A DNA stretch of 43,260 nt from a virus. A model generated the notes under the pieces. That model had not been told where the DNA came from and did not search any database. It saw only the letters and a program-made list of their open reading frames with translations. Position numbers and translations under genes: made by a program. Of this stretch, positions 2,927 to 17,000 are shown one piece after another (the first letter of the stretch is position 1; each line of letters begins with the position of its first letter). The DNA lies in IMG/VR virus record IMGVR_UViG_3300045988_009985, one strand, 5' to 3'.

Positions 2927-3429
2927 TGCACCATTGCTTTCACCACACCAGCCTGCGCCGCCTCCTCGTGGGTCATCAGCACGTCCACCGTGTAGCCGTA
3001 CACTCCGGTGTCGGCTGCTATGTACTCCTTGCCTCCGATAGTCACGGTGCTGCCCAGCGGGATAATGTCCGGGTCAACCGCCACCGCCTCGCCGATGCAG
3101 ACCCACCGTCCGGAGGCCGTCAGCACCTGCCCTGCCTCGTTGCGGTTGATGTCCGCATAGGGCGTGCAGCAGGCGCAATATCCGGTGATGTCGCATACCA
3201 GCAGATTCTCCGGCGGCTTCGCGGCGGACAGCACCGCCGCCTGCACCGCAGCGGGCAGGGGAGGGGGGACGTCCTCCGGCTCCTGTGCCTCCGGCAGCGT
3301 CAGCGCCCAGAGGAGGATGCCGATGATCAGCAGGATCATCAAAGCGTTGAGGATCCAGAGCCGCCTGTTCCACCGCCGCTCCCAGCAGCGCTGGGAATAC
3401 TCCCGCGCCCGCCTGTTCCGCTCTCTCAT
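2914..3429 (-). CDS. Membrane-anchored 3D-domain (RlpA-like double-psi beta-barrel) protein
   Basis: Starting at MRERNRR (ATG 3429), there is a TM helix (LWILNALMILLIIGILLWAL) and then GYCACC...VAVDPDIIPLGSTV...ADTG, typical of 3D domains. Confidence 0.65.
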   Translation of the reverse strand: MRERNRRAREYSQRCWERRWNRRLWILNALMILLIIGILLWALTLPEAQEPEDVPPPLPAAVQAAVLSAAKPPENLLVCDITGYCACCTPYADINRNEAGQVLTASGRWVCIGEAVAVDPDIIPLGSTVTIGGKEYIAADTGVYGYTVDVLMTHEEAAQAGVVKAMVQWEW

Positions 3430-3511
3430 CGTCCCAGCGCCTCCACGCCCTTGACGATGGCCCAGCTCAGCCACGCCGCGCCGATAAACGCCAGCGCCCA
3501 TGCAAACGCGC

Positions 3512-3721
3512 TCATTCCTCCACCGTCCTTTCCGCGATCCATGCGTCCAGCTGCTTCTTGAAGATCTGGAACACAGGGCTTCGCTCCATCTCGATCACGA
3601 TCCCGAAGGGATACACCCCCTGCTTGATGCCCTGCCGCAGCGTATCCGGCGATATGCTCAACCCGCGATCCCGCAGGTACTGTGCTGCGTCCTGCGGCGT
3701 CAGCGTTGCGATCCTGCTCAT
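3512..3721 (-). CDS. Small HTH DNA-binding protein (excisionase/MerR-like)
   Basis: It reads MSRIATLTPQDAAQYLRDRGLSISPDTLRQ. An ATGA-type overlap links it to the upstream gene. Confidence 0.6.
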   Translation of the reverse strand: MSRIATLTPQDAAQYLRDRGLSISPDTLRQGIKQGVYPFGIVIEMERSPVFQIFKKQLDAWIAERTVEE

Positions 3722-3879
3722 TTCAGCGCACCTCCGTCCACCGCCGCGCACAGCGTGTCGCACAGATTCTTGCAGGGGCAGGAGGGGCAATCGCACTCCA
3801 GCGGGCTTTTGTTCTCGCACAGCGCGTCCGTCCGTGCCAGGAAAACGCTTTCCAGCGCCCTGTACTCGTCTCTGCTCAT
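3718..3879 (-). CDS. Small Cys-rich protein (53 aa)
   Basis: It contains CENKSPLECDCPSCPCKNLCDTLC. The start overlaps the upstream stop. Confidence 0.5.
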   Translation of the reverse strand: MSRDEYRALESVFLARTDALCENKSPLECDCPSCPCKNLCDTLCAAVDGGALK

Positions 3880-4070
3880 TTCTTTCTCCTCTCGATGATG
3901 GCATCCAGCGCATTTTCCATGCGCTTCTGGATGTCCTTCGGCTTCTTCACGCCGTTCAGAATCTGGCACACATACGCCTTTCCGATCCCCAGCTCCGCGC
4001 CCAGCTCGGCGTAGGTAATGCGGTTGTTGTGCATCCTCCCGATCAGGCGTCCCGTCCATGCTTCCGGCAT
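3876..4070 (-). CDS. Cro-like HTH protein; first gene of the minus-strand early operon
   Basis: RITYAELGAELGIGKAYVCQILNG is an HTH. The gene is divergent from the plus-strand lysogeny genes, and GAAAGGAG precedes the ATG. Confidence 0.65.
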   Translation of the reverse strand: MPEAWTGRLIGRMHNNRITYAELGAELGIGKAYVCQILNGVKKPKDIQKRMENALDAIIERRKK

Positions 4071-4158
4071 TTCTTATCTCCTTTCAAATTTATAGTTGCA
4101 AAAGTTTACTTTCCGTGATACCATAAAGTTGCCACACATCATGCATCACGAGGTGCTT
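4071..4158. promoter_or_regulatory. Divergent early/lysogeny control region (putative genetic switch)
   Basis: An 88-bp AT-rich gap separates the divergent genes. A possible plus-strand promoter is TTGCAA-17 nt-TACCAT. AGTTGC is repeated at about 4104 and 4128. Confidence 0.35.
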
Positions 4159-4512
4159 ATGACCAGATACGATCTGCTTTCCGTCCTTCTGGACAACGGC
4201 GGCGAAATGGAACAGTCCCAGCTGTTGAACAAATTCCCGGACGCCCAAGTTACCGCCGAGGGCTTTTTCCAAATGCTTCTGGATGACCGCTGCATCAAAT
4301 GCGGCAAAGAACCGCGGTCAACTGTCTCCATCACATTCAAAGGCAAAGCCCTTTACTCACAGCTTGATCAGGAAAAGAAAGACCACGACGAGGAACGCGC
4401 CTACATTCGAGCCGTAAATCATAGCTCTCGCAATATCGCAATAATAGCCGCGTGCGCTGGTGTGATCGCCGCAGTCTTGTCCTTTATCCAAATTCTTCTG
4501 CTTCTCCTGTGA
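4159..4512 (+). CDS. Hypothetical protein with a C-terminal TM anchor (alternative start at 4141)
   Basis: MTRYDLLSVLLDNGGEMEQSQLL is wHTH-like. The C-terminus IAIIAACAGVIAAVLSFIQILLLLL is hydrophobic. Confidence 0.5.
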   Translation: MTRYDLLSVLLDNGGEMEQSQLLNKFPDAQVTAEGFFQMLLDDRCIKCGKEPRSTVSITFKGKALYSQLDQEKKDHDEERAYIRAVNHSSRNIAIIAACAGVIAAVLSFIQILLLLL

Positions 4513-4622
4513 TAACCGCCGTAAATGGCTCACCAGCACCCAAATGTTCCCGATCAATACAGCGGTGCAGTACTGAAAGGCCAATACTGCTCCTGCGCCC
4601 ATTCTCTCACCCCCTCTCTCTT

Positions 4623-4699
4623 TGTTGCGTTTGTTACCTAACACGATGCCATTATATAGCTAACATTCGCAACAGTCAACACGAAATGTTGCGTTTGTT
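4623..4699. promoter_or_regulatory. Candidate operator repeats upstream of the XRE repressor gene
   Basis: TGTTGCGTTTGTT occurs twice, at 4623-4635 and 4687-4699. An inverted half-site CGCAACA lies at 4668-4674. Confidence 0.4.
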
Positions 4700-4736
4700 C
4701 ACTTTTGTATCCTTGCACAACAAGGAGGTATAAATT

Positions 4737-5054
4737 TTGTTTTATTTGACGTTTATTGAGCTATGCTCAAAAATAAAAAAGTCCCCATCCGCAGTCGCAG
4801 AGGAGATGGGATTCAAAAGATCAGTTGTCACGCGCTGGCGGAACGGGACAGTCCCCCGCGATGCCAACTTGCAGCGCATAGCTGACTATTTTGGTGTTCC
4901 GGTCGAAACCCTGACCGCAGGGCAAAAAGAAACCGCGCCCACCGTTACCGATGAGCGCGATCTTGAAATGCTGTCTCTGCTGTCCCGCCTTACGCCGGAG
5001 CAGAAGGAGATGCTTCTTCTCCAGATAAAAGGGCTTTTGCCGCCGCAAGAATAA
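4737..5054 (+). CDS. XRE/CI-type HTH repressor (TTG start)
   Basis: AAGGAGG lies 8 nt upstream of the TTG. KSPSAVAEEMGFKRSVVTRWRNGTVPRDANLQRIADYFGV is a Cro/C1 HTH. Confidence 0.75.
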   Translation: MFYLTFIELCSKIKKSPSAVAEEMGFKRSVVTRWRNGTVPRDANLQRIADYFGVPVETLTAGQKETAPTVTDERDLEMLSLLSRLTPEQKEMLLLQIKGLLPPQE

Positions 5055-5186
5055 TGTCCTTCTCCGTTTCTCCAAGCTGTACAAACAGCTCCATTAGTTT
5101 TTTGTCCATTTTTCCCCTCTCTTTCGTCAAATCACACAGTTTTTTTGCTCCGTGTTTGGCTATATATCCAAATTTATTTTCTTAAC

Positions 5187-5215
5187 TTGTTTACATTCCG
5201 TGCAGTTTGTATAAT
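5187..5215 (+). promoter_or_regulatory. Sigma-70-type promoter for gene 5239..5757
   Basis: TTGTTT-17 nt-TATAAT. The perfect -10 box lies 24 nt upstream of the ATG. Confidence 0.55.
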
Positions 5216-5238
5216 ATTGTCCGGAAGGGGGTGAACAA

Positions 5239-5757
5239 ATGGATTCTCAGGATAACGTAAGATTCCAATTAAAGGGTATGCCAACGTCCCCGCTTGTTGA
5301 AAACCGCGCGACCAGTCCGCCCCCAGTTACACCAAAAAAGAAAAAATCGCATTGGCAAGCTGTCTTGTGTGCATTGATAATCCTTGCCGCCTATATGTGC
5401 GGAGACTACTTCGGGCATGATCGGGGGTATACCCAAGGAAAAACAGATACGTATGACACTGCATACGCCAAAGGGAAAGATGCCGGATATACTACAGGTT
5501 ATGACGACGGCTACGACAACGGGTATTCAGACGGGGAAAAATACGGTCGCGCAGCCGAAATTTCGAAGAACTTAAGGAACAGAATTAAAACGAACAGTTC
5601 TCCGCAAGTTACATATGACTACACGGTTTATATTACTGCCACCGGGTCGAAATACCACAGGTGGGGGTGCCAATACTTAAAAGAGAGCTGTTACTACCTG
5701 TTGCGTTCAGACGCAATCTCCAGAGGCTATACGCCCTGCTCTGTATGTAACCCATAA
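5239..5757 (+). CDS. Membrane-anchored protein with a GY-rich linker and a C-terminal Zn-ribbon (Ada-like) module
   Basis: The TM helix is WQAVLCALIILAAYMCG, followed by GYTQG/GYTTGYDDGYDNGYSDG repeats. The C-terminus reads YITATGSKYHRWGCQYL...GYTPCSVCNP. Confidence 0.6.
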   Translation: MDSQDNVRFQLKGMPTSPLVENRATSPPPVTPKKKKSHWQAVLCALIILAAYMCGDYFGHDRGYTQGKTDTYDTAYAKGKDAGYTTGYDDGYDNGYSDGEKYGRAAEISKNLRNRIKTNSSPQVTYDYTVYITATGSKYHRWGCQYLKESCYYLLRSDAISRGYTPCSVCNP

Positions 5758-5764
5758 ACAATGC

Positions 5765-5796
5765 GCCCCCGCCGCCTCCGCAACGGCGGCGGGGGC
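5765..5796 (+). terminator. GC-rich hairpin downstream of 5239..5757, with no clear U-tract
   Basis: gcccccgccgcc and ggcggcgggggc form a 12-bp stem with an 8-nt loop. Confidence 0.4.
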
Positions 5797-5951
5797 TTAC
5801 AGCAGACACACCAACCATCACGCGCACCTGCTGCGGCTTCACCGTAACAAAACCGCATTAGGCAGGTCAACGCCAAAACGTGGCAGACCGCCCCGCCGCA
5901 CCAAACCGAAACAGGGCAGGTCTCGCCCAGTTGAGGGAGGAACGAATAATC

Positions 5952-6341
5952 ATGGAACAATCTTTACAGGAGCTTTGCAGAGAAGCAAAATACCGAGAAA
6001 AGATGACGGCGCAGGACATATCCGACTATTCCGACGTTCCGCTGTCCAGCGTCAACAATTTTTTTGCAGCCTCTTCCAAAATGCCGTCTATCTACACCGC
6101 TGGCCCCATCTGCCGCGTCCTCGGTGTGTCGATAGACGCTTTTTTTCATATTCGGCCATCGCCCGATCCGTCCATAGAAGCGCAGCTTGCCCACGAACAG
6201 GAGATGAACCAGCTCCGCGTCAGAGCCATACGCCACAAGAATTATCTGATCCTCGGCCTGATGATCCTGCTTGCCATCACCCTGGCATACGGCATTACCA
6301 TTGATATGCTGGACCCCAACATGGGGCTGTTTCGGGAATAA
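5952..6341 (+). CDS. XRE-type HTH protein with a C-terminal TM anchor
   Basis: GAGGGAGG precedes the ATG at 5952. MTAQDISDYSDVPLSSVNNFF is an HTH. The TM helix is NYLILGLMILLAITLAYGITI. Confidence 0.6.
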   Translation: MEQSLQELCREAKYREKMTAQDISDYSDVPLSSVNNFFAASSKMPSIYTAGPICRVLGVSIDAFFHIRPSPDPSIEAQLAHEQEMNQLRVRAIRHKNYLILGLMILLAITLAYGITIDMLDPNMGLFRE

Positions 6342-6443
6342 AACATTTGTTCTGTTTGTTTGCTGCCATTGTACATGACAAGCCTCTTGTTTTCAATCGG
6401 CAAGATTTACAAGATTCTTGTTTCTTCTTTGTGAGGTGTCCCT

Positions 6444-7529
6444 ATGTCTACTTGTATTAAATGCGGCGTCACCCTGGTACCGGATGCCGTTTATTGCCAT
6501 ATCTGCGGGAAAAAGCAGGTCACGGCCTCCCGCAAGGCGCTGAAACGCCCCAACGGGTCCGGCACGGTGTATAAGCTGGGTGGGCGGCGGTCGCGCCCTT
6601 GGGTCGCCGCAAAAGACGGCGTGTATATCGGGTACTACGAGCGGAAAACGGACGCGCTGGCCGCGCTGGATCGGCTGGCAGGCCGTCCGCTGGAAGAAAA
6701 GTTCAATATGACCTTTTCCGAAGTGTTTACAGAATGGAAAGCCGAACACTATCGGGAGATAGGGGAGAAGGGCGTGGAATCCTATGACAGAGCCTACGCC
6801 GTATGTGCGCCGCTGCACAATAAGAAATTCCGTGACCTGCGCACAAAGGACTTTCAAGCCATCATCGACAGCAACATGGCAAAGTCCAACTCCACGCTGT
6901 CCAAATACAAGCAGCTCATGACTCAGATGGCCCGCTGGGCCGTCCGTGAGGAGATCGCCACCACCGACTTTGCCAAATATGTCAAGCTGCCCCAGCAGGT
7001 AAAAAAAGAAAAAGCCATCTTTACAGATGACGAAATCGCGCTATTGGAAAAAGACGGCTCAGATGCCGCCAAGATCGCCCTTATGATGATTTACACCGGT
7101 ATGCGCATCGGTGAATTGTTCTCCTTGCCGCTGAAAGACTACCATGAATCGTATGTGATCGGCGGCGAAAAGACAAAGGCCGGTAGAGACCGCGTCATTC
7201 CCATCCGCCCGGAGGGCAGGAAGTATTTTGCATATTTCGCCTCCCGCGCCACCGGCGACCTGCTCATTTCCGGCTACGATGGGCAGCGCATCCCCGCCAA
7301 TTACCGCAAACGTGATTTCTATCCGTTGCTGGAAAAGCTCGGCATTCCAAAGCACACGCCCCACGCCACGCGCCACACTTACGCAACATGGGCAAGAAAT
7401 GCAGGCATCCAGCCGGAGATTTTGCAGAAGATCATCGGTCACGCAAACTTCTCCACCACGGCGGACATTTACATCCATGCAGACGCGGAAAAGCTCATCT
7501 CCGCCGTTGAATCTGCAAGTAATTTGTAA
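6444..7529 (+). CDS. int: Tyrosine integrase with an N-terminal zinc ribbon and an AP2-like DNA-binding domain
   Basis: The zinc ribbon is CIKCG...CHICG. The catalytic signature is present: TGMRIGEL (Arg), HATRHTYAT (HxxR) and IIGHANFSTTADIYIH (His, Tyr). Confidence 0.9.
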   Translation: MSTCIKCGVTLVPDAVYCHICGKKQVTASRKALKRPNGSGTVYKLGGRRSRPWVAAKDGVYIGYYERKTDALAALDRLAGRPLEEKFNMTFSEVFTEWKAEHYREIGEKGVESYDRAYAVCAPLHNKKFRDLRTKDFQAIIDSNMAKSNSTLSKYKQLMTQMARWAVREEIATTDFAKYVKLPQQVKKEKAIFTDDEIALLEKDGSDAAKIALMMIYTGMRIGELFSLPLKDYHESYVIGGEKTKAGRDRVIPIRPEGRKYFAYFASRATGDLLISGYDGQRIPANYRKRDFYPLLEKLGIPKHTPHATRHTYATWARNAGIQPEILQKIIGHANFSTTADIYIHADAEKLISAVESASNL

Positions 7530-7663
7530 GTAACCGAAAAAAAACTAAAACCGCTTAAAACGGGTTCTTGTTATTGCTTTCCTGGAAACATTATCAAAAC
7601 ACAGCGAAAACCACGCAAAAACGTTGCGAAATTATATTGTCCATATTTGACGTGCATGGGGTC

Positions 7664-7691
7664 ACAGGTTCGAGTCCTGTACCGCGCACCA
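7664..7691 (+). other. 3' fragment of a tRNA gene (T-arm, acceptor 3' strand, CCA); putative attP core
   Basis: The sequence acagg-ttcgagt-cctgt-accgcgc-a-cca matches that structure. The matching 5' acceptor gcgcggt is absent upstream, so this is not a complete tRNA. It lies 135 nt downstream of int. Confidence 0.7.
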
Positions 7692-7696
7692 AAAAA

Positions 7697-7731
7697 ATCC
7701 CTGTAACCGCAACGGTTACAGGGATTTTCTT
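7697..7731. terminator. Rho-independent, bidirectional-type terminator
   Basis: atccctgtaacc and ggttacagggat form a 12-bp stem with a 5-nt loop. The hairpin is flanked by A7 upstream and TTTTCTTATTT downstream. Confidence 0.7.
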
Positions 7732-7772: not shown

Positions 7773-8168
7773 TTACCCGTTCTCGACAACGTGCATTGCC
7801 TGCCGCAGCGCTTCCTTTACGTTGGGATCGTCGGTGTCCTGCATCATGCGCTCGATCAGATCCTTTGCCTTGCCCTCATCACGGCTGTACCGGCCCATAG
7901 AATCCCTCTTGCGCCGATACGAGCTGCCTCTGTTGTAGGCGGTGCGCCCGGAAGACCAGTCGCGGGAATAGCCGTCATCGCGGGAATACCCATCGTCGCG
8001 GCTGTAGTCGCCGCTTTCAAACATGGCGATTTTGTCAATGTTCTTGATGGACGATGCCAGCTTGTGGATGGCGTCCAGGTCAGCAGCGCTCAGCTCCCGC
8101 TGGCCGGAAAACTCAGACAGCTCTTCACATAGCATCTCTCGGATACCGAAAAGCTCCTTCATGTTCAT
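7773..8168 (-). CDS. Hypothetical protein with YSRD repeats
   Basis: The centre reads DYSRDDGYSRDDGYSRDWSSGR...RDSMGRYSRDEG, with helical N- and C-termini. This is the last gene before attP. Confidence 0.55.
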   Translation of the reverse strand: MNMKELFGIREMLCEELSEFSGQRELSAADLDAIHKLASSIKNIDKIAMFESGDYSRDDGYSRDDGYSRDWSSGRTAYNRGSSYRRKRDSMGRYSRDEGKAKDLIERMMQDTDDPNVKEALRQAMHVVENG

Positions 8169-8181
8169 GTTGCCCCTCCTT

Positions 8182-8622
8182 TCAGCAGACGCGCTCCACG
8201 ATCATGTTGCTATTGGCAAAGCTGATCGCCTGAGCGCTGGTGTTCTCCATCGCCACCGTTACGTAGCAGCCCTTCGGCACGTCCACGTTGGCAGCGACAT
8301 AGATGTTGAAATAGTTCTCCACGGCGGCGGGCGTTACTGTCGCCACGGCGCTGGTCAGCGGCTCACCGTTAATAGCCAGCGCGGCGGAGATCGCGCCCAC
8401 CGTGCCGCCGGTGGGGATGGCAATGTTTCCGCCGAAGGACACGCGAAACCGTGCCTTACACTGGTTTGTCAGGCCGCGCAGGAACACCTGCCCGCTGCCC
8501 TCGCGGTGTACGATGCAGGACTTGCCCGCAACGGCAGTTTCCGTCAGAGGCACATTCTGTCCGGCAGGTACGGTAACAATGTTGGTATTTACGTATTCAG
8601 CCAAAATACTCACTCCTTTCAA
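8182..8622 (-). CDS. BclA C-terminal-domain-like (C1q/TNF-like jelly-roll) protein. The start is uncertain: TTG at 8622 or TTG at 8604.
   Basis: It has a beta-rich pattern (FRVSFGGNIAIPTGGTVGAISAALAINGEPL...) and ends SNMIVERVC, like BclA-CTD terminal strands. AAAGGAG at 8613-8619 favours the 8604 start. Confidence 0.45.
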   Translation of the reverse strand: MKGVSILAEYVNTNIVTVPAGQNVPLTETAVAGKSCIVHREGSGQVFLRGLTNQCKARFRVSFGGNIAIPTGGTVGAISAALAINGEPLTSAVATVTPAAVENYFNIYVAANVDVPKGCYVTVAMENTSAQAISFANSNMIVERVC

Positions 8623-8714
8623 AATGCAGACGGCGGAGCTATTGCCCCGCCGCCTTTCAATATCAGCCCGGAGCTGAACAATTTCCGTTTTGGAAATAGA
8701 TTCCTATGCAGTTG

Positions 8715-9419
8715 TCAGCAGCCGGAGCAGCCGGAGCAGCCGGTGTAGCTGCCAGCCCACGGGTTGCAGGATGCATACGCCGGGATGGGCGTCGGCCGCA
8801 GCTGGGAGATCAGGTAGTTGTTCTGCGCAGCCTGAGACGCGGCCAGACGCAGCTCCTGATTTGCGCTCTCCAGATCGCGCATCTTGGAGTTGGTCAGGAA
8901 GTCCAGGATGGCGCGGCTGTTGGCGTTCTGGTTCTCCACGATGTCGCGGGTGGCGTTCTGCACGGTGTTCCGCGTGTCACACGCCTGCGTAGCCATGTCA
9001 TATCGCACCTGCGCAACAGCGGCTCTGTTCTCGCAGCAGCAGTTTGCCGCCTGCATCTGCATAGCGCTGAGCTGCTGCATCAGTGCGGCCTGCTGGTTGG
9101 CGCGGGACAGCTCGGCATTGCCGAAGCCGGTCAACAGCGTGTTGTTCACGGCATAGAAGCCGTCGCACAACCCGTTATTGATGATATCCATCTTGCGCTC
9201 GATGTTGGAGAAGTCGGAGGCCAGCACATAGCCGTCCACCACGCCGCCGGAATTGCCAGCGTTGTTGCCCCAGCCGTTGCCGCCCCAGCCGCAGAACGCG
9301 AACAGGAACAGGATGATGAGGAACCACGCGCCGTCACCGCCAAAACCAAAGCCGTTACCGTTGCCATTGGCAGGGGCCACAGGCATGGTCATGGTGGGCA
9401 TACCCTCGGAAATAGACAT
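8715..9419 (-). CDS. Membrane protein with a Gly-rich N-terminus, an N/Q-rich coiled coil and Cys clusters
   Basis: The N-terminus reads GNGNGFGFGGDGAWFLIILFLFAFCGWGGNGWG. There is an internal CCCENR and a C-terminal GCSGCSGC. Confidence 0.6.
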   Translation of the reverse strand: MSISEGMPTMTMPVAPANGNGNGFGFGGDGAWFLIILFLFAFCGWGGNGWGNNAGNSGGVVDGYVLASDFSNIERKMDIINNGLCDGFYAVNNTLLTGFGNAELSRANQQAALMQQLSAMQMQAANCCCENRAAVAQVRYDMATQACDTRNTVQNATRDIVENQNANSRAILDFLTNSKMRDLESANQELRLAASQAAQNNYLISQLRPTPIPAYASCNPWAGSYTGCSGCSGC

Positions 9420-9480
9420 AGTATCACTCCTTTTTATTGATGTAATTTATCTGAATCGCGGCCACGATCAAGAAACAAGT

Positions 9481-9516
9481 TACGTTTTGTCTTACGTTTC
9501 GTCTTATGTTTTGCTT
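9481..9516. repeat. Three tandem 12-mers in the 9420-9514 intergenic region
   Basis: The units are tacgttttgtct, tacgtttcgtct and tatgttttgctt, immediately upstream (minus sense) of CDS 8715..9419. Confidence 0.8.
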
Positions 9517-9715
9517 ATTCCATAAGACTTTGAAATTGTTTCGCCATCTGCTGGAGCTGGTTCAACTGCTGCTGCGTAAGCTTGCCGCTCTGCAAAAGCT
9601 TTTCGACCTCCGCTTTAGGGTCTCCCTGGAAATTTGCCTTGAACTGCTTGAACTGCTGCACCATCTGCATAAAGCCGTTGTTGCCGCCCATTGCACCGAA
9701 AAACGGATTATTCAT
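9515..9715 (-). CDS. Small Q-rich hypothetical protein (66 aa)
   Basis: The ORF overlaps the upstream stop. Its composition is Q/K/F-rich and helical. Confidence 0.5.
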   Translation of the reverse strand: MNNPFFGAMGGNNGFMQMVQQFKQFKANFQGDPKAEVEKLLQSGKLTQQQLNQLQQMAKQFQSLME

Positions 9716-10133
9716 CGCTCTTTTCCTCCTTGCGCTTCTTGCCCTTCATTTCGCTCACAAGCGCCGCCAGCGCGTCAAACTCCTTACGGGTGACAAACTT
9801 ATCATCCATTTTTTTAGTATCATGAGGTTTGTTTTCAGCTTCTTCCGTGTAATTAAACGTCCTCATTGGAATAGGCGTACCGCTTGCGTCTCGCTCCTTG
9901 ATGTAAAAAACCGTCGAGTTTGTTTCGAAGATAATTACTCGAGAATTTGGGGCGACCATAAACCCGTTTGCCTCTTCTTTGCCCCCGCTAATCCACACAA
10001 CGCTTGTCTGCATTTGTTGCGGTTGAGCCGTTTGCACAGGCATTTGTGGCTGCATCATTTGCTGCTGCCTCAGCTGGGCGAGGTTGTCCTGCATCGGCGA
10101 CATATAGGGGTTTCCGTAGTATGGATAGTTCAT
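9708..10133 (-). CDS. Hypothetical protein with a Q/M/P-rich N-terminus and a small beta domain
   Basis: It begins MNYPYYGNPYMSPMQ...QPQMPVQTAQPQQMQ and continues VVWISGGKEEANGFMVAPNSRVIIFETNSTVFYIKERDASG. Confidence 0.55.
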   Translation of the reverse strand: MNYPYYGNPYMSPMQDNLAQLRQQQMMQPQMPVQTAQPQQMQTSVVWISGGKEEANGFMVAPNSRVIIFETNSTVFYIKERDASGTPIPMRTFNYTEEAENKPHDTKKMDDKFVTRKEFDALAALVSEMKGKKRKEEKSDE

Positions 10134-10513
10134 GCTTCATCCGTCCTTTCCCAGTAATACAAGGGTGTTTCGGCTCCGGAATCCCATGTGTCGTGCCAGT
10201 CTCCGTCTATCACGCACACCACATGGGACACCAGCGCCAGCAGATATGTACCACGCGGGTGATCCATTGCAAAATCACTCACGGAATAGCTGTCCGAACA
10301 GTCATCCGGGATAATATGCCGTGTAAAGCCCAGCTTCTTGAGATACGCGCCCCACACGGTGTTGGCGCTGGGCATATCCGCAAGTGCCAGGCCCTGCATA
10401 CAAAGCTGCACATACGTCTCATGCCAGCCCTGCCCCGTGGCGCGGCAGATCGCGCGAACAGGACAGTCTCCCACGTTCTTGCCGGAGGGATTCGGGTTAT
10501 ACCATACGAACAT
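10130..10513 (-). CDS. Hypothetical protein, possibly a papain-fold Cys-His-Asp enzyme
   Basis: GAGGTGG lies 5 nt before the ATG at 10513. Motifs GDCPVRAI ... SHVVCVIDGDWHDTWD suggest a Cys/His/Asp triad, but this is unverified. Confidence 0.45.
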   Translation of the reverse strand: MFVWYNPNPSGKNVGDCPVRAICRATGQGWHETYVQLCMQGLALADMPSANTVWGAYLKKLGFTRHIIPDDCSDSYSVSDFAMDHPRGTYLLALVSHVVCVIDGDWHDTWDSGAETPLYYWERTDEA

Positions 10514-10690
10514 CACGACCACCTCTCTTTACCGCCAGCATACGGCAGATATCTCCGGAGAAAGCGTCAAGAAAAGGGCGAAAAAGTGCGTGTCGTTTTT
10601 TGTCGAACAATTTTTCTTGCGTTTCCCACTTGTGCGCATTACAATAAAAATACCCTGATTCCTTTCCTGCGTTCCATGTGCAGCAGGGAA

Positions 10691-10726
10691 GAAAAAAAGA
10701 CACACCTACACGGTGTGTCTTTTTTC
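10691..10726. terminator. Rho-independent bidirectional terminator ending the late operon
   Basis: agacacacc-tacac-ggtgtgtct is flanked by A7 and T6. It overlaps the last codons of CDS 10706..10960. Confidence 0.7.
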
Positions 10727-10960
10727 TGCTCTCAGGCCGTCGGCCATTTTTTTGTATGCGGTACGGCGGCGGCGCTTTACGCCGTCAACCGATACGTTCA
10801 TACGGAACGCCTGCTCCACGCAGCTTCGTCCCCGCACGTCGCATTCCGCGATACACTGTGCCTCCTCCTGCGGCAAGTCAAAAGATTGGATCCACGCGAT
10901 AGCTCTCTTGGGTGCCATGCTATGCAGCATAGCCCGTATTTCACGGTGCTCCTGGTTCAT
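10706..10960 (-). CDS. Small sigma-70 region-4-like HTH regulator
   Basis: LPQEEAQCIAECDVRGRSCVEQAFRMNVSVDGVKRRRRTAYKKM resembles the region-4 HTH of phage ArpU/RinA-type or ECF-like regulators. Confidence 0.5.
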   Translation of the reverse strand: MNQEHREIRAMLHSMAPKRAIAWIQSFDLPQEEAQCIAECDVRGRSCVEQAFRMNVSVDGVKRRRRTAYKKMADGLRAEKRHTV

Positions 10961-11047: not shown

Positions 11048-14000
11048 TTACGGTGCTCGCCACCGGTTTTTCAATTCCTTCACGGACTCAACGCCCTGCT
11101 CATTTTTCATGATGCCCTCCACGCCCTGTCGCACGTCTGACGCCTCATAGCCGTGCTCCAGCATCTCTTTATAGATCAGCCGCGCCGTCTCGGTGTCTTT
11201 GTCCTTCTGCGCCCGGTACAGCAGCTCGCACCACCGTTTTCGGTTTCCGGCGCTCCTGTCCATGCGATAGATCGCTTTTTCCATCTCAAACATTACCCGC
11301 ACATTCCCTGTGTCGTTTGCGATGCTGCGAGCAATAGACCACATGTCGCGCCCCATGTTCCCAACGCTGATTCCAAAAACCTTGCTGCACATGAGCATGA
11401 CCTGTTTCAGGTTGTAGGCCGTGGTGGTTTTTGAATCCCCGCCCAAGCCCTTGATAAAGGTTTTGGACGTTCTGATAATATCGTCTGCCGCCGCTGCATC
11501 CATACGGTCAACGGTGTAGCCCTGCAAGATAGACAAAATATCCTTCAGGTACGGAATACGGCCTACCGGATTTATGTTGCTGATAAGGTTTCCCCCCAGC
11601 ACAACATTTTTCACGGCTTCGCCCGCATTTTTTTCATCACCGGAATAGCCGGTAAATGCTTCCAGAATACGTTCCGCCCAGTTCTTATCCTTGTCATCGT
11701 CCCGCAGACCGTCCACAATGGACTGCGCCAGTGCGTTCACCACGTCCGTCACCAGCAATGCGCCTACAGACCGCTTCAGCTGCTTCAGCGCCTTGCTGCG
11801 CTTATGCGGATTCGTTTCATACACCCATGCGTCGTAGGCCCGCATCAGGACGTTCAGGCTTTTCAGCGGCTCACCCATGAAAGACGTGGCCTGCCGCGTC
11901 AATGCGTCGCTGTCCCGCATGATCTGCGTGCGCTGCATAACGCCGTCCACCACCTGCGTCTGGTCGATCACATCCGTGAACAGCTCCGCCACCTGCCGGT
12001 AATACGCATCGCTGCCTACTTCCGTGTTTGTGTTTGCTGCCACCTGCCATTCGCAGGCGTTCCAGATTTTGCCCCACGTCACCGCGTCGGCCTTTCCGGC
12101 CAGTGCCATGCTCTTGTCGTTCAGCCATTCCCGCACGTTCCCGTCTGAACCGTATACCTCACGCGAAATGGTGTACCGGCTGCCCTGGTCAAAGCCGGAC
12201 GTATCCTTGATCCCCGCAATAGCCGCCCACTTTCTGGCCTTGTCCCATCCGTTCCCAGCCGTCGCGCCTTTCGTAAGGCCCTTTGTCATGTTCTCCGGCT
12301 CCAGCACCACAGCCGCACGACAGTATGCCGTAGGCTGCTGGATGATCACACGCAGGTTCGCGCCAACCGCTGCGCCTTTCGTATTGCCCACGATGCGTTC
12401 CACGGTCCTTGTGGTAGAGCTGGCGCTTTTTACCATGCCGTTCTGCACATCCCGCATCAGGTTCCGCCAATAGCTCTGGGCCGCGTCGCCGTACACGCCG
12501 GACAGGACCTGCCGCACATTCTTCCCGGTCAGGTTGCCCATGCTGTCCCTGTACCGGTAGTTGTACAGACGGTTGATGTCCTCCATTGGAGCCAACAGTG
12601 TGGCATACTTGATCATATCGCTGGCGTTCTGCGCAAACACGTCATACGCGCCGCCGATGTCCAGCGCATTGCTGGCGTTGGGGGTCAGCGCCTTTGCACT
12701 GCCCATATTCTTGATCGACCGTGCGTTGTCCGCGTCCTTCTCCACGCTGGAGGCCACCGCATCCTTTGCAGCCTTGATGGGCCAGTAATTCTCCTCCTTG
12801 AACTTACGGTAGCCGTAGACCTGCATACTGGCCTCGTTGCCCCACTCCGCCAGTTTTGTGCTTGCCAGCTTTTGCAGACCGTTTGCCACTTTGATCTGCT
12901 CAGGCGTCAGCACGGAGGTGATGGCCTTGATGTCCTCCTCCGTCAGCAGAATGTTGTCGTTCCCGCGCGGGATCGCCTTCAACTTACCGTTCCGCTGGAT
13001 CTCCGGCTGCACAATGCCGCCCACCGTCAGATGGTGCATAGCCTGTTCCCCGCGCCGCGCCAGATTGTACAGGTTCATGATCTGGTCGGTGGTCAGCGTC
13101 AGCTCCACACCACGGCTGGTGGTGAAGGTGTGCCGTTCACCCCGGTTTTTATACACGTCCGCATCCAGAAACTTTTTCGCCGCGTTCCGCAACTCCATCA
13201 GCATCACGTGCTCTCGGTCCTGCGCGTTCCGCAGCGTTCGGTATACCTGCATGCCGCCGTCGCCGTAGGCAGAGAAGAACGTATACGGATCTGCCATGTC
13301 CAGCGAAATTTTCCGGTTTCGCCGCTTCCGGCTCATGCTGCCCATCATAAGGCTTTCCGCCCACTCGCTGGTCCGTGCGTACTTCTGATTGGCAAGCGTC
13401 CGGTCGTAGCTGGTCAGCGTGGTCTCGATAGCACGCACCGTGTTCCACACGGTCTCCAGCTCCGTCACATTCATGTCAGCAATGCGCTTGCCGCCCAGCG
13501 CGGACAGAGAATCCAGCAGACCGCCGCTTTCCGTCAGCGCCGGGTCTACCACCATATTCCCCTCGTTGTCCAGAATATCATCATAGATCTGCTTGAGCCG
13601 GTCTGCCTCCAGCGTCCTTCTGGTGGGGTCGCCGTCCGCGTTTTTCCGCAGCCGCCCATTTTCGTCGTAGCTGTTCGCGCTCTCCAGGTTGATATTCCGC
13701 AGCAGGGCCGCCACCACTACGCGCAGCTCCTCCGGAATGTGCTGCTTGTCCGTGGGATTCACCAGTTTGCGGGAGATTGCGCCGGTGTGCCGTGCGATCC
13801 GCGCCCGCATCGCCGTTGCTTTTCGTCTTTCGCTGCCCTTCTTAGTCTTCTCGTTGTACTTTTTCCGCAGCGCGTTTACGTCGTCCCGGCGCTTCTGCCG
13901 CTCGCGGGACAGCATCTCACGCACACGACCGACGGCCTCCTGCTTCTCCAGCGCACGCCTGTCTGCATACGTTTTCTTCTGCCGCACCTGATCGGAAATC

Positions 14001-17000
14001 ATGCCGTCGATCAGCTGATTGGCGATCTCCTGCACCGCCGCATCCCTGTATCCCTCAAAGGGATTGTGGTAAACGCTGTCAAGGCCATCCAGCACATCCC
14101 CGATTTGCAGCAGTTTGTCCGCCTCCGTATACACGTCGCTGGGGAAATAGCCCTCGCCGAACATCTCCGTCAGCTCGCCATACACGGTATCCACAGACGT
14201 GCCATTGGACTTGTTCAGTTTCAGCGTTCCCATGTGGCTCTTTCGAAAATCGCCGTAGTTTGCCATGTCCCCGCCGAACTGGATGGTCTGCCGCTTCAAA
14301 TAGTCCCGAATTTCCAGCAGCTCCGCGCCGTACTCCGTCAGCTCAGAGGTGTTGTCCACAATGGCCTCCGCCACGGCCTTGGCGTGTGGCATCAAATCCT
14401 CCATCGTCACGTCCCGCTTCATCACAGCCTTGGCAAGCGCGTCCATCTCGCTCTGCACGTCCGCGTATTTCACATCGCTGCCGTACTCGCGGATGAGATT
14501 CTGCCCCAGCTTTTTCACGTCCCGCAGCACCACGGACGGTTCCTTGCTGATGCGCATTTCGCCTTTCAGCTCTTGTACCCGCTGCTTCAGCGCCTCGTTC
14601 TGCTTGGCCAGCGCGTTTCGCTCCTTTTTGAGTTCCCGCGCCTCGCGCTCCACCTCCGCCGCGCTTCGCAGCTGATAGCGGATATTGTTACTTTCTTTAA
14701 ACCTCTTGACTTCTTTCTGAAACTGTGCTAAATTTTCCTTGAGGGATGCATCTGTTATGTCCCCCAGCCCTGCTGGCTGGGCTACCTCTGACAGGTTGCC
14801 TCTCTCTTTTTTGTTGTAATCAAGCACGCGTCCATCTTTAATGGCATTACGAATTAGTTTATCCCATCCAACACGCCCACCATTTTCAAAGAAATTACGT
14901 TCCGCAATAGTCAGGACAACGTGTGGTCGCATTTCTCTGTTTTCTGGAGAGATTGCTTTCCGCGAATAAAAACTTAGAACAGCGTACAGCGGCGCATCGT
15001 TGTTTCCATATTCCGGTAGCATCATAATAACCGCCGGGTTTCCATCCTTTGTTTTGGTAGATATAGTCATGATCGGCTCGTTGATGCTCATAATGGCTCG
15101 CGTCATTTTCTCCACACCCAGATCGTGGAAATGAACTTCCGCCCCTTTGTGCTGCGTTGGGCGTCCGTCCTGAATAGCTTGCGCCTTGCTGACCATGTTT
15201 TCGTAAGCATGGTCACGCTGAATGTAAATGTCTCCGTTGATCCCCAGCTTTTCACTGATATATCGGGGCATAATGCTGACAGGAATCAGCTGATTCTGCC
15301 GGGTAGCTTTTTCGTTTAACGCATCATACAGCGCTGTAGAAACCGCCTGTTCGCTGAAACTTTTCAAAGAAAACCGTTTATCGCCGTCGCCCTCACCGGC
15401 GGCGGTTTTTGCTTTCTCCGCCTGCCGCTCCGCCGCGTCAAAGGCCGCCTGCCACTGCTTTGCAATGTTTTCCAGCTCGACAAAGTCCTTGCCGTATGCC
15501 TCCTGCGCCGCCATGTCGCGGTATTTGCCGGTGAACGCGGTTTTGACCTTGGCAAGAAATTCTTTTAAGCTGTCCAGCAGTTTCTGTGCCGCCGTCCGGT
15601 TTTCCTTTGAGAACTTGGCAAACAGGGCTGCGTCGTCCAGCATATCACCGGCGAAGTCCGCCGCAAGTTCGTCCATCACATCGTCCCGCGTCAGCGTCAC
15701 GCCCTCCTGCTCCGCCGTCTCCATGTACCGCTCCACGATCTCCGCCTCTGTGTCCGCGCCGTTTTCGCGCATCTTGTACTCCACCGCAGCCTGCCGGAAC
15801 TTCCGGTATTCAGAGGGGGACAAGTCCTGCATTCGGTGGGTGATCTCATGTGCGGTCACGTTCAAAAGAGGCTTGCCGCTGTCAGCGGCGATTTGGATGA
15901 GATTCTGCTCTTTGATGTACTGGCCGTTGGCTCTGCCGCCCAGCACCTGATCCACGATCTTGATCCGGACGCCCAGCTTCTTGCCCCATGTGTTCAGCGT
16001 GGCGGCGGTGTCCTTCTTTGCTGCGATCAGATACCGACTGTACTCGTTGTCCGCCAGACCGGCACCCGCCGTGGTTGTCACAGATGCCACCTCCGCGTTC
16101 TCCCGTGCCACTTGCGCCCGTGCGTCCTCCAGCCCAGCATTGTACGCCGCGTACCGCTGCTCCGGCGTCAGCATCGCCGCGTACTTGCCCTTGGCCTTGT
16201 CCGCTTCGATGCCGTTCAGTCCCGCGTTGTACACGCTGGAAAATCCTGCATACAGGGAAGGTGCGTCCTCTGCCGTCCGGCTCATTTCCTGATACGCCTT
16301 TTGCCCGTTTTCCAAAAAGCCGCCTACGCGCTTCTCTGCGCGTTTCTGCACAGCAGGGGAGGGAGGTGTAGCCCTCTGCGTTTCCTGCGTCACCTCGCGG
16401 CTTGCAAGCCCCGCAATGTCACGTTTTACCTGACTGATCGGCTTGTCCGTGTCCAGCTTCACGCCGGTGCGCTGCTCCAGCACCTCCACCGCCACCGGGT
16501 CACGGGCGATAGCCGCCGCCTGATTGCCGGTGATGGTCTCGCCCCGCGTCACAGCCTCCACCGCCTCCGCAGACTTTGCGTTCATCTCCGGCGCGGTGTT
16601 CTGCTGCACATCTCGGTTGTACTGCGCTTTTGCTGCGCCATACGCGACACGGTTGGCAAGGGCATTCACGCCCATTGTGCCGCCGGACAGCAATCCGCCG
16701 ACGATAGCGCCTCCAGCAAACTCTTCGGCAGCGGTGCCTGGATCAAAAATCGCGTTTTCGTTTACGCCAAAATACGGATTATCGGCATCATATACCGCAT
16801 TTTGCAGTGTTCGGTCGATGATGCCCTGCAGAACCTCCTCCTTGCCCTCGTCAAGCATGGTGTTCACCAGCGTCCGCCACGCCGCCTGGTTCGCCACCTT
16901 TCCGGGCAGGTTTTGGATACCGCCGCTGATCTCGATCTCCGACCCCAGAAGCGCGTTCCCGATGGCGTACAGCGCGGCCCGCTTGTCATCCACGCCCTCC

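What the first reader, a model, noticed from the sequence alone, without database searches (positions are those of the whole stretch)
7773..10522. Separately terminated six-gene cassette next to attP, with spore-surface-like and Cys-rich proteins
The late operon ends at a clean terminator (10691-10726). A further six minus-strand genes follow and run up to the attP terminator. That is the classic position for lysogenic-conversion cargo.
The products are: a 127-aa protein with a possible Cys-His-Asp triad (GDCPVRAI...HVVCVIDGDWHD); a Q/M/P-rich 141-aa protein; a Q-rich 66-aa protein; a 234-aa membrane protein with a Gly-rich YjcZ-like N-terminus, an internal CCCENR and a C-terminal GCSGCSGC; a 146-aa beta-rich protein ending SNMIVERVC, which reads like a BclA C-terminal (C1q/TNF-like) domain; and a 131-aa protein with YSRD repeats.
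A triple 12-mer repeat (9481-9516) lies inside the cassette.
I recognise none of these as a standard virion component. The mix of low-complexity, Cys-rich, disulfide-prone and TNF-like proteins is reminiscent of spore coat or exosporium layers or other cell-surface assemblies. Alternatively, they are unrecognised tail-tip proteins.
Basis: inference. Interest (0 to 1): 0.65.

Follow-up and report, generated by a model that had tools for sequence, protein, structure and literature searches.

The report
Conserved orphan six-gene gut-phage module
The six small genes at the end of this gut-bacterium prophage are a real, very widespread phage module built around a cysteine-rich membrane protein and a BclA/ExsFA-like (TNF-fold) protein; its job is unknown, but it more likely serves phage growth than acts as cargo for the host.

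Summary
Six minus-strand genes (A-F, 10513->7773) lie between two strong terminators, next to a verified attP (tRNA-Val 3' fragment).

All six match only unannotated phage families; Pfam, NCBIfam, PADLOC and PDB sequence searches found nothing.

The same A-B-C-D-E-F order recurs in 29 of 41 related genome loci. It also occurs in a cultured lysogen (Vescimonas fastidiosa MM35) and in the virulent Butyrivibrio phage Ceridwen, on unrelated phage backbones.

- **E:** its AlphaFold model is a TNF/C1q jelly roll.
- **A:** a papain-like fold with invariant Cys17, His97 and Asp108.
- **D:** a Gly-rich hydrophobic anchor, an invariant CCC and a Cys/Gly tail. Homologues exist in Clostridium perfringens phages and crAss-like phages.

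The lysogenic-conversion reading is weakened. The full module is kept by a virulent phage, no promoter is evident, and a terminator usually precedes A.

My best reading (about 0.35) is a productive-cycle, membrane-anchored D-E assembly with low-complexity partners. The function is unproven.

The parts
10691..10726 (-). Intrinsic terminator ending the late operon. It overlaps the stop codon of the 84-aa sigma-region-4-like ORF.
   Evidence: Hairpin GACACACC/GGTGTGTC followed by U7; -26.5 kcal/mol, z = -4.3. A terminator-like hairpin lies within 330 nt upstream of gene A in about 20 of 29 related loci.
10130..10513 (-). Gene A: a 127-aa papain-like cysteine-hydrolase fold, with putative triad Cys17/His97/Asp108.
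   Evidence: phrog_3754, E = 7e-29. Invariant residues in A3 and A6. AF2 pLDDT 94.5, with Cys17 at a helix N-terminus and His and Asp on following strands. BFVD hits are uncharacterised phage proteins, with Josephin, C39 and NlpC/P60 lower down. The best PDB match is only Josephin-2, E = 0.11.
9708..10133 (-). Gene B: 141 aa, with a Q/M/P-rich N-terminus, a small conserved beta domain (IWVxGE...YLKxADxSGxP) and a charged helical tail. It overlaps A by 4 nt.
   Evidence: phrog_21718, E = 1e-24. Alignment A8. A homologue exists in C. perfringens phages, HMM E = 2.5e-9. No Pfam or PDB hit.
9515..9715 (-). Gene C: 66 aa, Gln-rich (21%) and helical. It overlaps B by 8 nt.
   Evidence: phrog_22984, E = 7.5e-23. 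Conserved position in 29 loci.
9480..9517 (.). Tandem 12-mer, 3.2 copies, in the C-D intergenic gap.
   Evidence: TRF score 55. Found only in near-identical phage copies L045-L048. The C-D gap is an insertion hotspot in relatives.
8715..9419 (-). Gene D: a 234-aa protein with one hydrophobic segment. It has an uncharged/acidic N-tail, a Gly/Trp-flanked hydrophobic segment (AWFLIILFLFAFCGW), a long helical Q/N-rich region with an invariant CCC, a PxPxPAY motif and a Cys/Gly tail.
   Evidence: phrog_16490, E = 3e-43. Alignment A5: invariant C127-C129, P220, C228. The only hydrophobic segment in the cassette. Homologues: C. perfringens phage PMQ04 (hhalign 99.8%) and crAss-like cr53_1 gp66 (HMM E = 1.8e-45).
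8182..8604 (-). Gene E: a 140-aa standalone TNF/C1q-type jelly roll (BclA-CTD/ExsFA-like). It is the most conserved gene of the module.
   Evidence: phrog_20016, E = 4e-59. AF2 pLDDT 88.3. Foldseek PDB matches: 9h38, 9h3d, 7r1m, 8d02, 1wck, 1rj7. The family has 549 clusters at 50% identity, nearly all about 140 aa. Mean pairwise identity 0.65.
7773..8168 (-). Gene F: 131 aa, with a helical N-domain, a Tyr/Ser/Arg/Asp-rich repeat core (YSRD) and a helical C-domain.
   Evidence: phrog_28802, E = 1e-5. Alignment A9. Always follows E, with an HNH insertion between them in Ceridwen.
7694..7728 (.). Bidirectional terminator closing the cassette. In the integrated state it lies just downstream of the rebuilt tRNA-Val.
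   Evidence: 16-bp stem; -28.4 kcal/mol, z = -7.0.
7647..7690 (+). attP core: the 3' part of a tRNA-Val gene.
   Evidence: Homology to prophage copies ends at 7647. ARAGORN finds tRNA-Val(GAC) at the junction in L045. Integrase lies at 6444-7529.
10706..10960 (-). Neighbour, not shown to belong: an 84-aa sigma-70 region-4-like protein just upstream of the terminator.
   Evidence: Weak Sigma70_r4 hit (E = 0.0015) and phrog_3512 sigma factor (E = 7e-5). Homologues lie upstream of A in L004, L010, L019 and L041.

Best explanation
The six genes are one conserved, horizontally mobile phage module, not a set of virion genes and probably not host-serving cargo.

**Shown**
- The gene order is fixed across unrelated phage backbones.
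- A-B-C are translationally coupled. D and E-F follow after short gaps.
- D is the only protein with a hydrophobic segment. It carries an invariant CCC and a Cys/Gly tail.
- E is a standalone TNF/C1q jelly roll closest to ExsFA/BxpB and the BclA C-terminal domain.
- A has a papain-like Cys-His-Asp layout.
- B, C and F are low-complexity proteins: Q/M/P-rich, Q-rich and Y/S/R/D-rich.

**Inferred mechanism**
1. The module is transcribed in the productive cycle. This would be by read-through or anti-termination from the late or lysis genes, or by a phage factor.
2. D inserts into the cytoplasmic membrane by its Gly-zipper-like segment and presents a helical stalk.
3. An E trimer docks on D's Pro-rich, Cys-rich C-terminal end. 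This would parallel the way ExsFA binds the Pro-rich leader of BclA or F-Anchor.
4. B, C and F associate as matrix or adaptor proteins.
5. A trims or cross-links one of them.
6. The assembly acts at the envelope around the time of lysis or virion release.

The biochemical output is unknown.
For: **Synteny**
- ABCDEF is in the same order in 29 of 41 GTDB loci. Most other loci lie near a contig end or on short contigs; a few (L003, L006, L007, L025, L039) genuinely lack A-C or F. D always precedes E.
- The module also occurs in Dulem virus 33, Ceridwen and V. fastidiosa MM35.
- The window's other markers are absent from those loci, so the backbones differ.

**Use in the productive cycle**
- The complete module is present in Ceridwen, which has no integrase, has all genes on one strand, and has only been seen lytic.
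- D, with B and a C-like gene, is in C. perfringens phages. D is also in crAss-like cr53_1 next to holin and a LysB-like gene, and carries a recoded in-frame TAG. A preprint abstract links such recoding to late and lytic genes.
- The commonest annotated families among the nearest upstream genes are endolysins and holins.
- The module is co-oriented with the late genes. A terminator is usually upstream, and no conserved sigma-A promoter was found.

**D-E pairing**
- The two genes are always adjacent.
- A recombination patch (8124-9018) swaps the C-terminal half of D, E and the 5' end of F as one block.
- E's pairwise identities track D's best, r = 0.72-0.73.
- E's fold matches ExsFA at TM 0.76. 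ExsF binds Pro-rich peptides in its trimer clefts (PMC12357932).
- D carries a conserved RPxPxPAY motif.
Against: - There is no expression, localisation or interaction data.
- D's topology and any D-E contact are inferred.
- E, A, B, C and F lack signal peptides, so an extracellular role needs lysis or holin release.
- Genomic context is not uniform. D lies among recombination genes in Bacteroides phage C3_41T2LP and about 4 kb past the holin in C. perfringens phages.
- In temperate phages the position between lysis genes and attP is the classic moron site.
- Ceridwen could be a recent virulent derivative that merely retains the genes.
- A-like proteins occur in many phages without the rest of the module. 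A may therefore be functionally independent.
Confidence: 0.35

Rival explanations
1. Prophage-expressed cargo. The cassette would be a moron-type unit expressed in lysogens that changes the cell envelope or surface. Examples are superinfection exclusion, an adhesive or protective layer, or spore-surface remodelling in spore-forming hosts.
For: - It sits at the very end of the prophage next to attR and host DNA.
- It is bracketed by terminators.
- In temperate relatives it lies between holin/endolysin and integrase/repressor.
- It has exosporium-like ingredients: an ExsFA-like fold, Cys-rich proteins and Q-rich or Y-rich proteins.
Against: - No sigma-A-like promoter is present; the best match is 7 of 12 in the window, and none is conserved.
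- The full module is in the integrase-less Ceridwen, and D is in crAss-like phages.
- There are no signal peptides or lipoboxes.
- There is no PADLOC hit.
- To my knowledge (not checked with the tools), Butyrivibrio and Vescimonas do not form spores.
Confidence: 0.22
2. Unrecognised virion accessory. D would form a helical, trimeric fibre or spike and E would be its TNF-fold head, in effect a two-polypeptide version of a fibre with a knob. A would be a virion-associated hydrolase.
For: - E also matches phage receptor-binding or knob domains: the phi812 central spike knob and the cyanophage A-1(L) short tail fibre.
- D homologues are annotated 'spike protein/glycoprotein' or 'viral fiber' in crAss-like and Bacteroides phages.
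- B shows a faint tail-fibre PHROG hit, E = 0.009-0.4.
Against: - The module lies outside the structural block and behind a terminator.
- It moves between podo-like and sipho-like backbones that have their own fibres.
- E is the most conserved gene across phages of different hosts, which is unlike receptor binders.
- D has a membrane-type hydrophobic segment.
- The annotations are depositors' labels, not experiments.
Confidence: 0.15
3. A spanin-like or fusion-type lysis accessory. D alone would be the effector. It would be a membrane-anchored coiled coil with a Gly-rich fusion-peptide-like segment that disrupts or fuses membranes at the last step of lysis. A would activate it by cleavage and the other proteins would regulate it.
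For: - D's architecture is an N-terminal anchor plus a helical region plus conserved Cys, like i-spanins.
- It lies beside holin and a LysB/FtsL-like gene in cr53_1.
- Its profile gives sub-significant hits to the influenza HA2 fusion-peptide and helix region, E = 0.06-0.4.
- Lysis genes lie upstream in most loci.
Against: - The hosts here belong to Clostridia, which to my knowledge are monoderm and have no outer membrane to breach.
- There is no o-spanin-like lipoprotein ORF.
- The HA2 hits are not significant and are compositionally biased.
- The window already has a canonical Dp-1 holin and an endolysin 11 kb away.
Confidence: 0.1
4. There is no system. The six are unrelated small accessory genes that stay together only through linkage.
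For: - A-like proteins occur alone in Bacillus Tsamsa-like phages, Lak phages and many others.
- D occurs without E in other lineages.
- Homing endonucleases insert between the genes.
Against: - Order and orientation are kept at 30-65% protein identity across different backbones and host families.
- Start and stop codons overlap for A/B and B/C.
Confidence: 0.06

Closest known systems
ExsFA/BxpB, with its BclA or F-Anchor partner: the Bacillus cereus-group exosporium anchoring complex
   Same: - E is a standalone jelly roll of about 140 aa in the TNF/C1q class. Its highest TM-scores are to ExsFA/BxpB, 0.73-0.76.
- It is encoded next to an elongated, Cys-containing partner (D) with a Pro-rich peptide motif.
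- No signal peptides are present, as for proteins assembled in the mother-cell cytoplasm.
   Different: - There is no sequence similarity (8-13% identity) and no Pfam or NCBIfam hit.
- The partner is an alpha-helical membrane protein, not a collagen-like glycoprotein.
- No TIGR03720 exosporium leader was detected in D.
- It is encoded by phages. To my knowledge some of the hosts do not sporulate.
BclA C-terminal domain (PF18573) and phage fibre knobs of the TNF/C1q fold
   Same: Same fold; the top Foldseek hits are 9h38, 1wck and 3tyj, and phi812 and A-1(L) fibre domains also match.
   Different: - E is never fused to a collagen or fibre shaft in 549 family clusters.
- It is highly conserved rather than hypervariable.
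- Trimerisation was not tested.
Papain-like cysteine hydrolases: peptidase C39, Josephin deubiquitinases, NlpC/P60 and transglutaminase-like enzymes
   Same: A has Cys at the N-terminus of a helix, followed by a beta-sheet carrying invariant His and Asp. Josephin and C39 appear among its structural neighbours.
   Different: - No profile hit to any curated family.
- The best solved-structure match is weak, E = 0.11 and TM 0.49.
- Its nearest relatives are uncharacterised phage proteins.
- Substrate and chemistry (protease, deubiquitinase or transglutaminase) are unknown.
Two-component spanins (lambda Rz/Rz1)
   Same: D has an N-terminal membrane segment, a long helical region and conserved cysteines. 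Homologues lie next to lysis genes.
   Different: - The hosts are Clostridia, which to my knowledge are monoderm.
- There is no outer-membrane lipoprotein partner.
- There is no sequence relation to spanins.
- D is longer and ends in a Cys/Gly tail.
Lysogenic-conversion morons at the lysis-attP junction of phages of Gram-positive hosts (for example the sak/scn/chp and toxin genes of staphylococcal and streptococcal phages; from general knowledge)
   Same: Same map position, with flanking terminators.
   Different: - It has six co-conserved genes instead of single cargo genes.
- No own promoter was found.
- It is present in a virulent phage and in crAss-like phages.

Membership tests
BclA_C / TNF-C1q superfamily (E) | Ten-strand jelly-roll beta sandwich of the TNF/C1q type | tested here: met
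   AF2 pLDDT 88.3. Foldseek probability 1.0, E = 2e-6 to 4e-4, TM 0.63-0.76 to BclA, F-BclA, ExsFA and EDA.
BclA_C / TNF-C1q superfamily (E) | Sequence match to the curated family model (PF18573) | tested here: not met
   No Pfam hit at E <= 1. No PDB sequence or profile hit.
BclA_C / TNF-C1q superfamily (E) | N-terminal collagen-like stalk fused to the domain (BclA architecture) | tested here: not met
   E is 140 aa, and nearly all members of its 549 clusters are about 140 aa with no extension.
BclA_C / TNF-C1q superfamily (E) | Homotrimer | not testable with these tools
   No multimer prediction was available.
ExsFA/BxpB-type anchor (E with D) | Binds a Pro-rich exosporium leader (TIGR03720) of a partner in the trimer clefts | tested here: inconclusive
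   No NCBIfam hit in D. D has a conserved RPxPxPAY motif. The binding mode is known only from ExsF/F-Anchor. No complex prediction was possible.
ExsFA/BxpB-type anchor (E with D) | Part of a spore exosporium in a sporulating host | tested here: not met
   The module is encoded by phages and prophages, including Butyrivibrio phage Ceridwen and crAss-like relatives of D. The hosts' sporulation status was not checked with the tools.
Papain-like cysteine peptidase (A) | Cys at a helix N-terminus, with His and Asp/Asn on following strands, all conserved | tested here: met
   C17, H97 and D108 are invariant in 118 sequences. Helix 17-26 and strands 98-102 and 105-108.
Papain-like cysteine peptidase (A) | Significant similarity to a characterised member | tested here: inconclusive
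   PDB best is Josephin-2, E = 0.11. In BFVD, Josephin gives E = 5.5e-3 and C39 gives E = 8e-3, both below many uncharacterised hits. No Pfam hit.
Papain-like cysteine peptidase (A) | Catalytic activity | not testable with these tools
   Needs an enzyme assay.
Lysogenic-conversion moron | Located at a prophage end next to att | tested here: met
   The prophage junction and tRNA-Val lie directly after F.
Lysogenic-conversion moron | Own promoter plus terminator | tested here: inconclusive
   Terminators are present. No sigma-70-type promoter lies on the coding strand in 10514-10705. No conserved motif was found. Other promoter types are not covered.
Lysogenic-conversion moron | Restricted to temperate phages and expressed in lysogens | tested here: not met
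   The full module is in the integrase-less Ceridwen. Expression itself is not testable here.
Spanin (D) | i-spanin architecture plus an adjacent or embedded o-spanin lipoprotein gene, in a diderm host | tested here: not met
   A hydrophobic N-terminal segment and a helical region are present. There is no lipobox ORF on the coding strand. The host is Oscillospiraceae, which to my knowledge is monoderm.
Holin (D) | Small membrane protein paired with the endolysin | tested here: not met
   The window has a Phage_holin_Dp1 gene (21901-22116, E = 1e-28) abutting the endolysin. D is 234 aa and lies 11 kb away.
YjcZ family (D N-terminus) | Match to the YjcZ model | tested here: not met
   No Pfam or NCBIfam hit at E <= 1. 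The resemblance is compositional.
Anti-phage defence system | Match to PADLOC models | tested here: not met
   No meaningful hit.

The most novel reading that the evidence does not exclude
The module could build an exosporium-like, covalently cross-linked protein layer or matrix inside infected gut anaerobes, which to my knowledge are mostly non-sporulating. Its components would be:
- an ExsFA-like adaptor (E);
- a Cys-rich membrane anchor (D);
- Gln/Lys-rich proteins (B, C) and a Tyr/Arg-rich protein (F) as matrix;
- a papain-fold enzyme (A) acting as a transglutaminase or maturation protease.

Such a layer might coat or aggregate progeny or cell remnants so that they survive oxygen exposure and transit. 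The ancient core (D) would be shared with crAss-like phages.
Probability: 0.07. Interest if true: 0.9.

Novelty: new variant of a known kind. Interest (0 to 1): 0.55.

Why it matters
**Prevalence.** This is one of the commonest accessory modules in phages of gut Clostridia.
- In each of the three searches (A, D, E), about 7,900-8,000 of the 8,000 candidate 90%-identity clusters that were scored matched.
- E alone has 549 clusters at 50% identity.

**Reach.** The core protein D extends to C. perfringens phages and crAss-like phages of Bacteroidota.

**Knowledge gap.** Every curated library calls all six proteins unknown.

**New structural leads.** The module now has a fold assignment for E (ExsFA/BclA-like) and a papain-like catalytic layout for A. 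It also has a defined conserved architecture for D.

**Experimental handles.** Two cultured systems carry it:
- the virulent phage Ceridwen on Butyrivibrio fibrisolvens DSM 3071;
- the lysogen Vescimonas fastidiosa MM35.

With these, a long-ignored block of gut-phage dark matter becomes directly testable.

Tried and rejected
- **Diversity-generating hypermutation of E.** E differs by 3 aa while every other protein compared is identical in near-clonal copies. I rejected this idea because the 23 clustered SNPs span the 5' end of F, E and the 3' half of D, are mostly synonymous and are not A-biased. This is a recombination patch.
- **D as the holin.** Rejected; a Dp-1 holin sits next to the endolysin.
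- **An o-spanin partner.** No lipobox ORF was found.
- **A riboswitch or leader upstream of A.** Rfam gave only sub-threshold chance hits.
- **A shared promoter motif.** None was found, either upstream of A across 26 loci or among the window's own intergenic gaps.
- **Defence system.** PADLOC was negative.
- **PDB sequence and profile searches.** Searches for A, B, D, E and F gave nothing significant.
- **Small beta-rich proteins after D in other phages.** I compared those of C. perfringens and crAss phages with E, and a C. perfringens protein with F. hhalign was negative.
- **F versus DUF7841.** The DUF7841 protein upstream of the crAss D homologue is unrelated to F.
- **Literature.** Searches on ExsFA/BxpB with prophage, on exosporium/BclA/TNF-like with Oscillospiraceae, on the crAss lysis cassette and on DUF7841 found no description of this module.

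Full report
**What the window is.** It is a roughly 43-kb temperate phage of an Oscillospiraceae host.
- On the minus strand lie the large terminase, portal, major head protein, collagen-like tail fibres, a Dp-1-type holin (21901-22116), an endolysin (21108-21908) and an internal virion protein.
- These are followed by a 2241-aa giant protein and an 84-aa sigma-region-4-like protein.
- A tyrosine integrase lies on the plus strand at 6444-7529.
- Near-identical copies exist as a 43-kb circular-type contig and as prophages inside 70-110-kb contigs.

**Checking the observation.** All six ORFs are present as described.
- Two details need correcting. A starts at the ATG (127 aa). E starts at a TTG behind a GGAG site (140 aa, MAEY...), as in homologues and in gene calls of identical contigs.
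- A/B and B/C overlap by 4 and 8 nt. D, E and F follow after gaps of 95, 110 and 13 nt.
- The hairpin at 10691-10726 and the one at 7694-7728 are strong terminators (-26.5 and -28.4 kcal/mol, z = -4.3 and -7.0).
- Homology to integrated copies stops at window 7647. In L045 a complete tRNA-Val(GAC) sits exactly there, right after F. So 7647-7690 is the attP core, and the cassette is the last block of the prophage.
- The 12-mer repeat is real but confined to near-identical copies.

**Are the proteins known?** No.
- Each matches a PHROG of unknown function: A E = 7e-29, B 1e-24, C 7.5e-23, D 3e-43, E 4e-59, F 1e-5.
- Pfam, NCBIfam and PADLOC gave nothing.
- PDB sequence and profile searches gave nothing significant.
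- 'YjcZ-like' is therefore only a compositional resemblance.

**Is it a unit?** Yes.
- A scan of one genome per GTDB species with E patterns returned 41 loci. Family HMMs find A-B-C-D-E-F in the same order and orientation in 29 of them.
- Most other loci lie near a contig end or on short contigs. A few (L003, L006, L007, L025, L039) genuinely lack A-C or F. D always precedes E.
- The order is also kept in Dulem virus 33 and in a prophage of the cultured Vescimonas fastidiosa MM35.
- It is kept too in the cultured Butyrivibrio phage Ceridwen, where an HNH endonuclease is inserted between E and F.
- None of the window's structural markers accompany the module in those loci. It therefore moves between backbones.
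- Mean pairwise identities are E 0.65, A 0.57, F 0.53, D about 0.5, C 0.49 and B 0.44.
- In the searches for E, D and A, about 7,900-8,000 of the 8,000 candidate 90%-identity clusters that were scored matched. E has 549 clusters at 50% identity, nearly all about 140 aa.

**Structures.**
- E (pLDDT 88.3) is a TNF/C1q jelly roll. Its top solved-structure neighbours are the F-BclA C-terminal domain (9h38, E = 2e-6), ExsF/ExsFA/BxpB (9h3d, 7r1m, 8d02; TM 0.73-0.76), BclA (1wck and others), EDA-A1, 4-1BBL and two phage fibre or spike knobs.
- A (pLDDT 94.5) has Cys17 at the start of a helix, and His97 and Asp108 on the following strands. All three are invariant in 118 sequences.
- A's solved-structure neighbours are weak: Josephin-2, E = 0.11. 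In BFVD it matches many uncharacterised phage proteins from diverse hosts, then Josephin, C39 and NlpC/P60 proteins. tblastn finds A-like genes alone in Tsamsa-like Bacillus phages, Lak phages and GBK2.

**Protein D.**
- The family alignment shows an uncharged or acidic N-tail (often ...TMPVAPA... or ...LSDIAAVT...). It then shows Gly-rich flanks around the only hydrophobic segment in the cassette, and a long Q/N-rich region.
- It also shows an invariant CCC, a conserved ...TRDIIDNQNANSRAILD... block, an ...LAASQAAQN...LRPxPxPAY...NP(W/Y) motif and a Cys/Gly tail.
- Full-length homologues exist in C. perfringens phages (hhalign 99.8%), where B and a C-like gene precede it.
- A homologue also exists in crAss-like phage cr53_1 (gp66, HMM E = 1.8e-45). 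There it is annotated 'spike protein/glycoprotein' and sits after holin, a LysB/FtsL-like gene and a DUF7841 protein.
- Another homologue lies among recombination genes in Bacteroides phage C3_41T2LP.
- The D profile gives only sub-significant hits to the influenza HA2 fusion-peptide and helix region.

**Lysogenic cargo or productive-cycle function?**
- For cargo: the map position. Endolysin and holin families dominate the annotated hits among the three nearest upstream ORFs, and integrases or repressors dominate downstream. Terminators flank the cassette.
- Against cargo: Ceridwen has no integrase, has all genes on one strand, and has only been seen lytic, yet it keeps all six genes.
- Against cargo: D occurs in crAss-like phages.
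- Against cargo: no sigma-70-type promoter lies on the coding strand upstream of A, and no motif is conserved.
- Against cargo: a terminator-like hairpin precedes A in about 20 of 29 loci. This points to controlled read-through or a phage factor.
- Against cargo: no protein has a signal peptide or lipobox.
- I therefore favour a productive-cycle role. This is inference.

**Mechanistic proposal (inferred).**
- D anchors in the membrane and presents a helical stalk. An E trimer docks on D's Pro-rich and Cys-rich C-terminal end. This would be analogous to ExsF binding the Pro-rich leader of BclA or F-Anchor in its trimer clefts (PMC12357932).
- Three observations support D-E pairing. The genes are always adjacent. 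A recombination patch (8124-9018) exchanges the C-terminal half of D, E and the 5' end of F as one block between otherwise identical phages. E's divergence tracks D's best (r about 0.72).
- B, C and F would be low-complexity partners. A would be a maturation or cross-linking enzyme.
- Rivals are a prophage-expressed surface module, a two-piece virion fibre, a spanin-like or fusion-like lysis effector, and mere linkage. None is excluded.

**Novelty and verdict.**
- The gene families are catalogued but uncharacterised. I found no description of the module in the searched literature.
- It is best seen as a new, phage-borne variant of 'TNF-fold cap plus elongated anchor' assemblies, with unknown output.
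- Interest is moderate to high because of its prevalence and testability, not because a mechanism is established.

Noticed in passing
window 8124-9018: 23 of 26 nucleotide differences between the window and otherwise identical prophage copies (11.8 kb aligned) cluster here, across the 5' end of F, E and the 3' half of D. Most are synonymous; E has 3 aa changes. This looks like a homologous-recombination patch, not hypermutation.
   Followed up: yes
window 7647-7728; L045 11729-11804: The attP core is the 3' part of tRNA-Val(GAC). The bidirectional terminator after F lies immediately downstream of the rebuilt tRNA in the integrated state and may also terminate it.
   Followed up: yes
window 2007-2339 (ORF 1812-2702, minus strand): A 27-bp tandem repeat of 12.3 copies encodes collagen-like repeats in a DUF7666 protein of the early region. 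The homologous gene is shorter (233 aa) in a near-identical phage, so copy number varies.
   Followed up: partly
window 11048-17773 (minus strand): A giant 2241-aa ORF directly upstream matches only phrog_22978 (unknown) and no Pfam family. It contains an HEITH (HExxH-type) motif. It is probably an ejected or internal virion protein, since it follows an internal-virion-protein gene.
   Followed up: partly
window 10706-10960 (minus strand): An 84-aa sigma-70 region-4-like protein has its stop codon inside the terminator hairpin. Homologues lie upstream of gene A in L004, L010, L019 and L041, so it may regulate the module.
   Followed up: partly
L002 9521-10315; L001 9614-10165; L011 and L019 C-D gaps: Homing-type endonucleases, or 0.7-1 kb inserts, occupy intergenic gaps of the module. 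In Ceridwen an HNH sits between E and F. In Dulem virus 33 an endonuclease sits between C and D.
   Followed up: partly
L031, L035, L036, L041: the 120 nt upstream of gene A: Some relatives carry a small Cys-rich ORF (...CPCGRETCCPDCGLCE...) immediately before A. It is absent from the window.
   Followed up: no
L051 (crAss-like cr53_1) 2709-6509: The D homologue gp66 and its neighbours (holin, LysB-like, gp65, gp64) contain in-frame TAG codons, meaning recoded stops. gp67 is a DUF7841 protein with an Arg/Gly/Tyr-rich tail.
   Followed up: partly
L014, L018, L019, L023, L038 (GTDB MAG contigs): Contigs carrying the module are binned in MAGs labelled Bacteroides, Collinsella, Prevotella, Alloprevotella and Akkermansia. 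These 3-47-kb contigs are probably mis-binned Clostridia-phage contigs.
   Followed up: no
window 21901-22116 and 21108-21908 (minus strand): A canonical Phage_holin_Dp1 holin (E = 1e-28) overlaps the start of the amidase endolysin in the middle of the late region. Virion genes continue downstream of the lysis pair.
   Followed up: yes
window 10590-10625 and 8660-8690 (minus strand): A short shared element (GAAAWTTGTTC) occurs in the gap upstream of A and in the D-E gap. A GC-rich hairpin lies in the D-E gap. Their significance is unknown.
   Followed up: no
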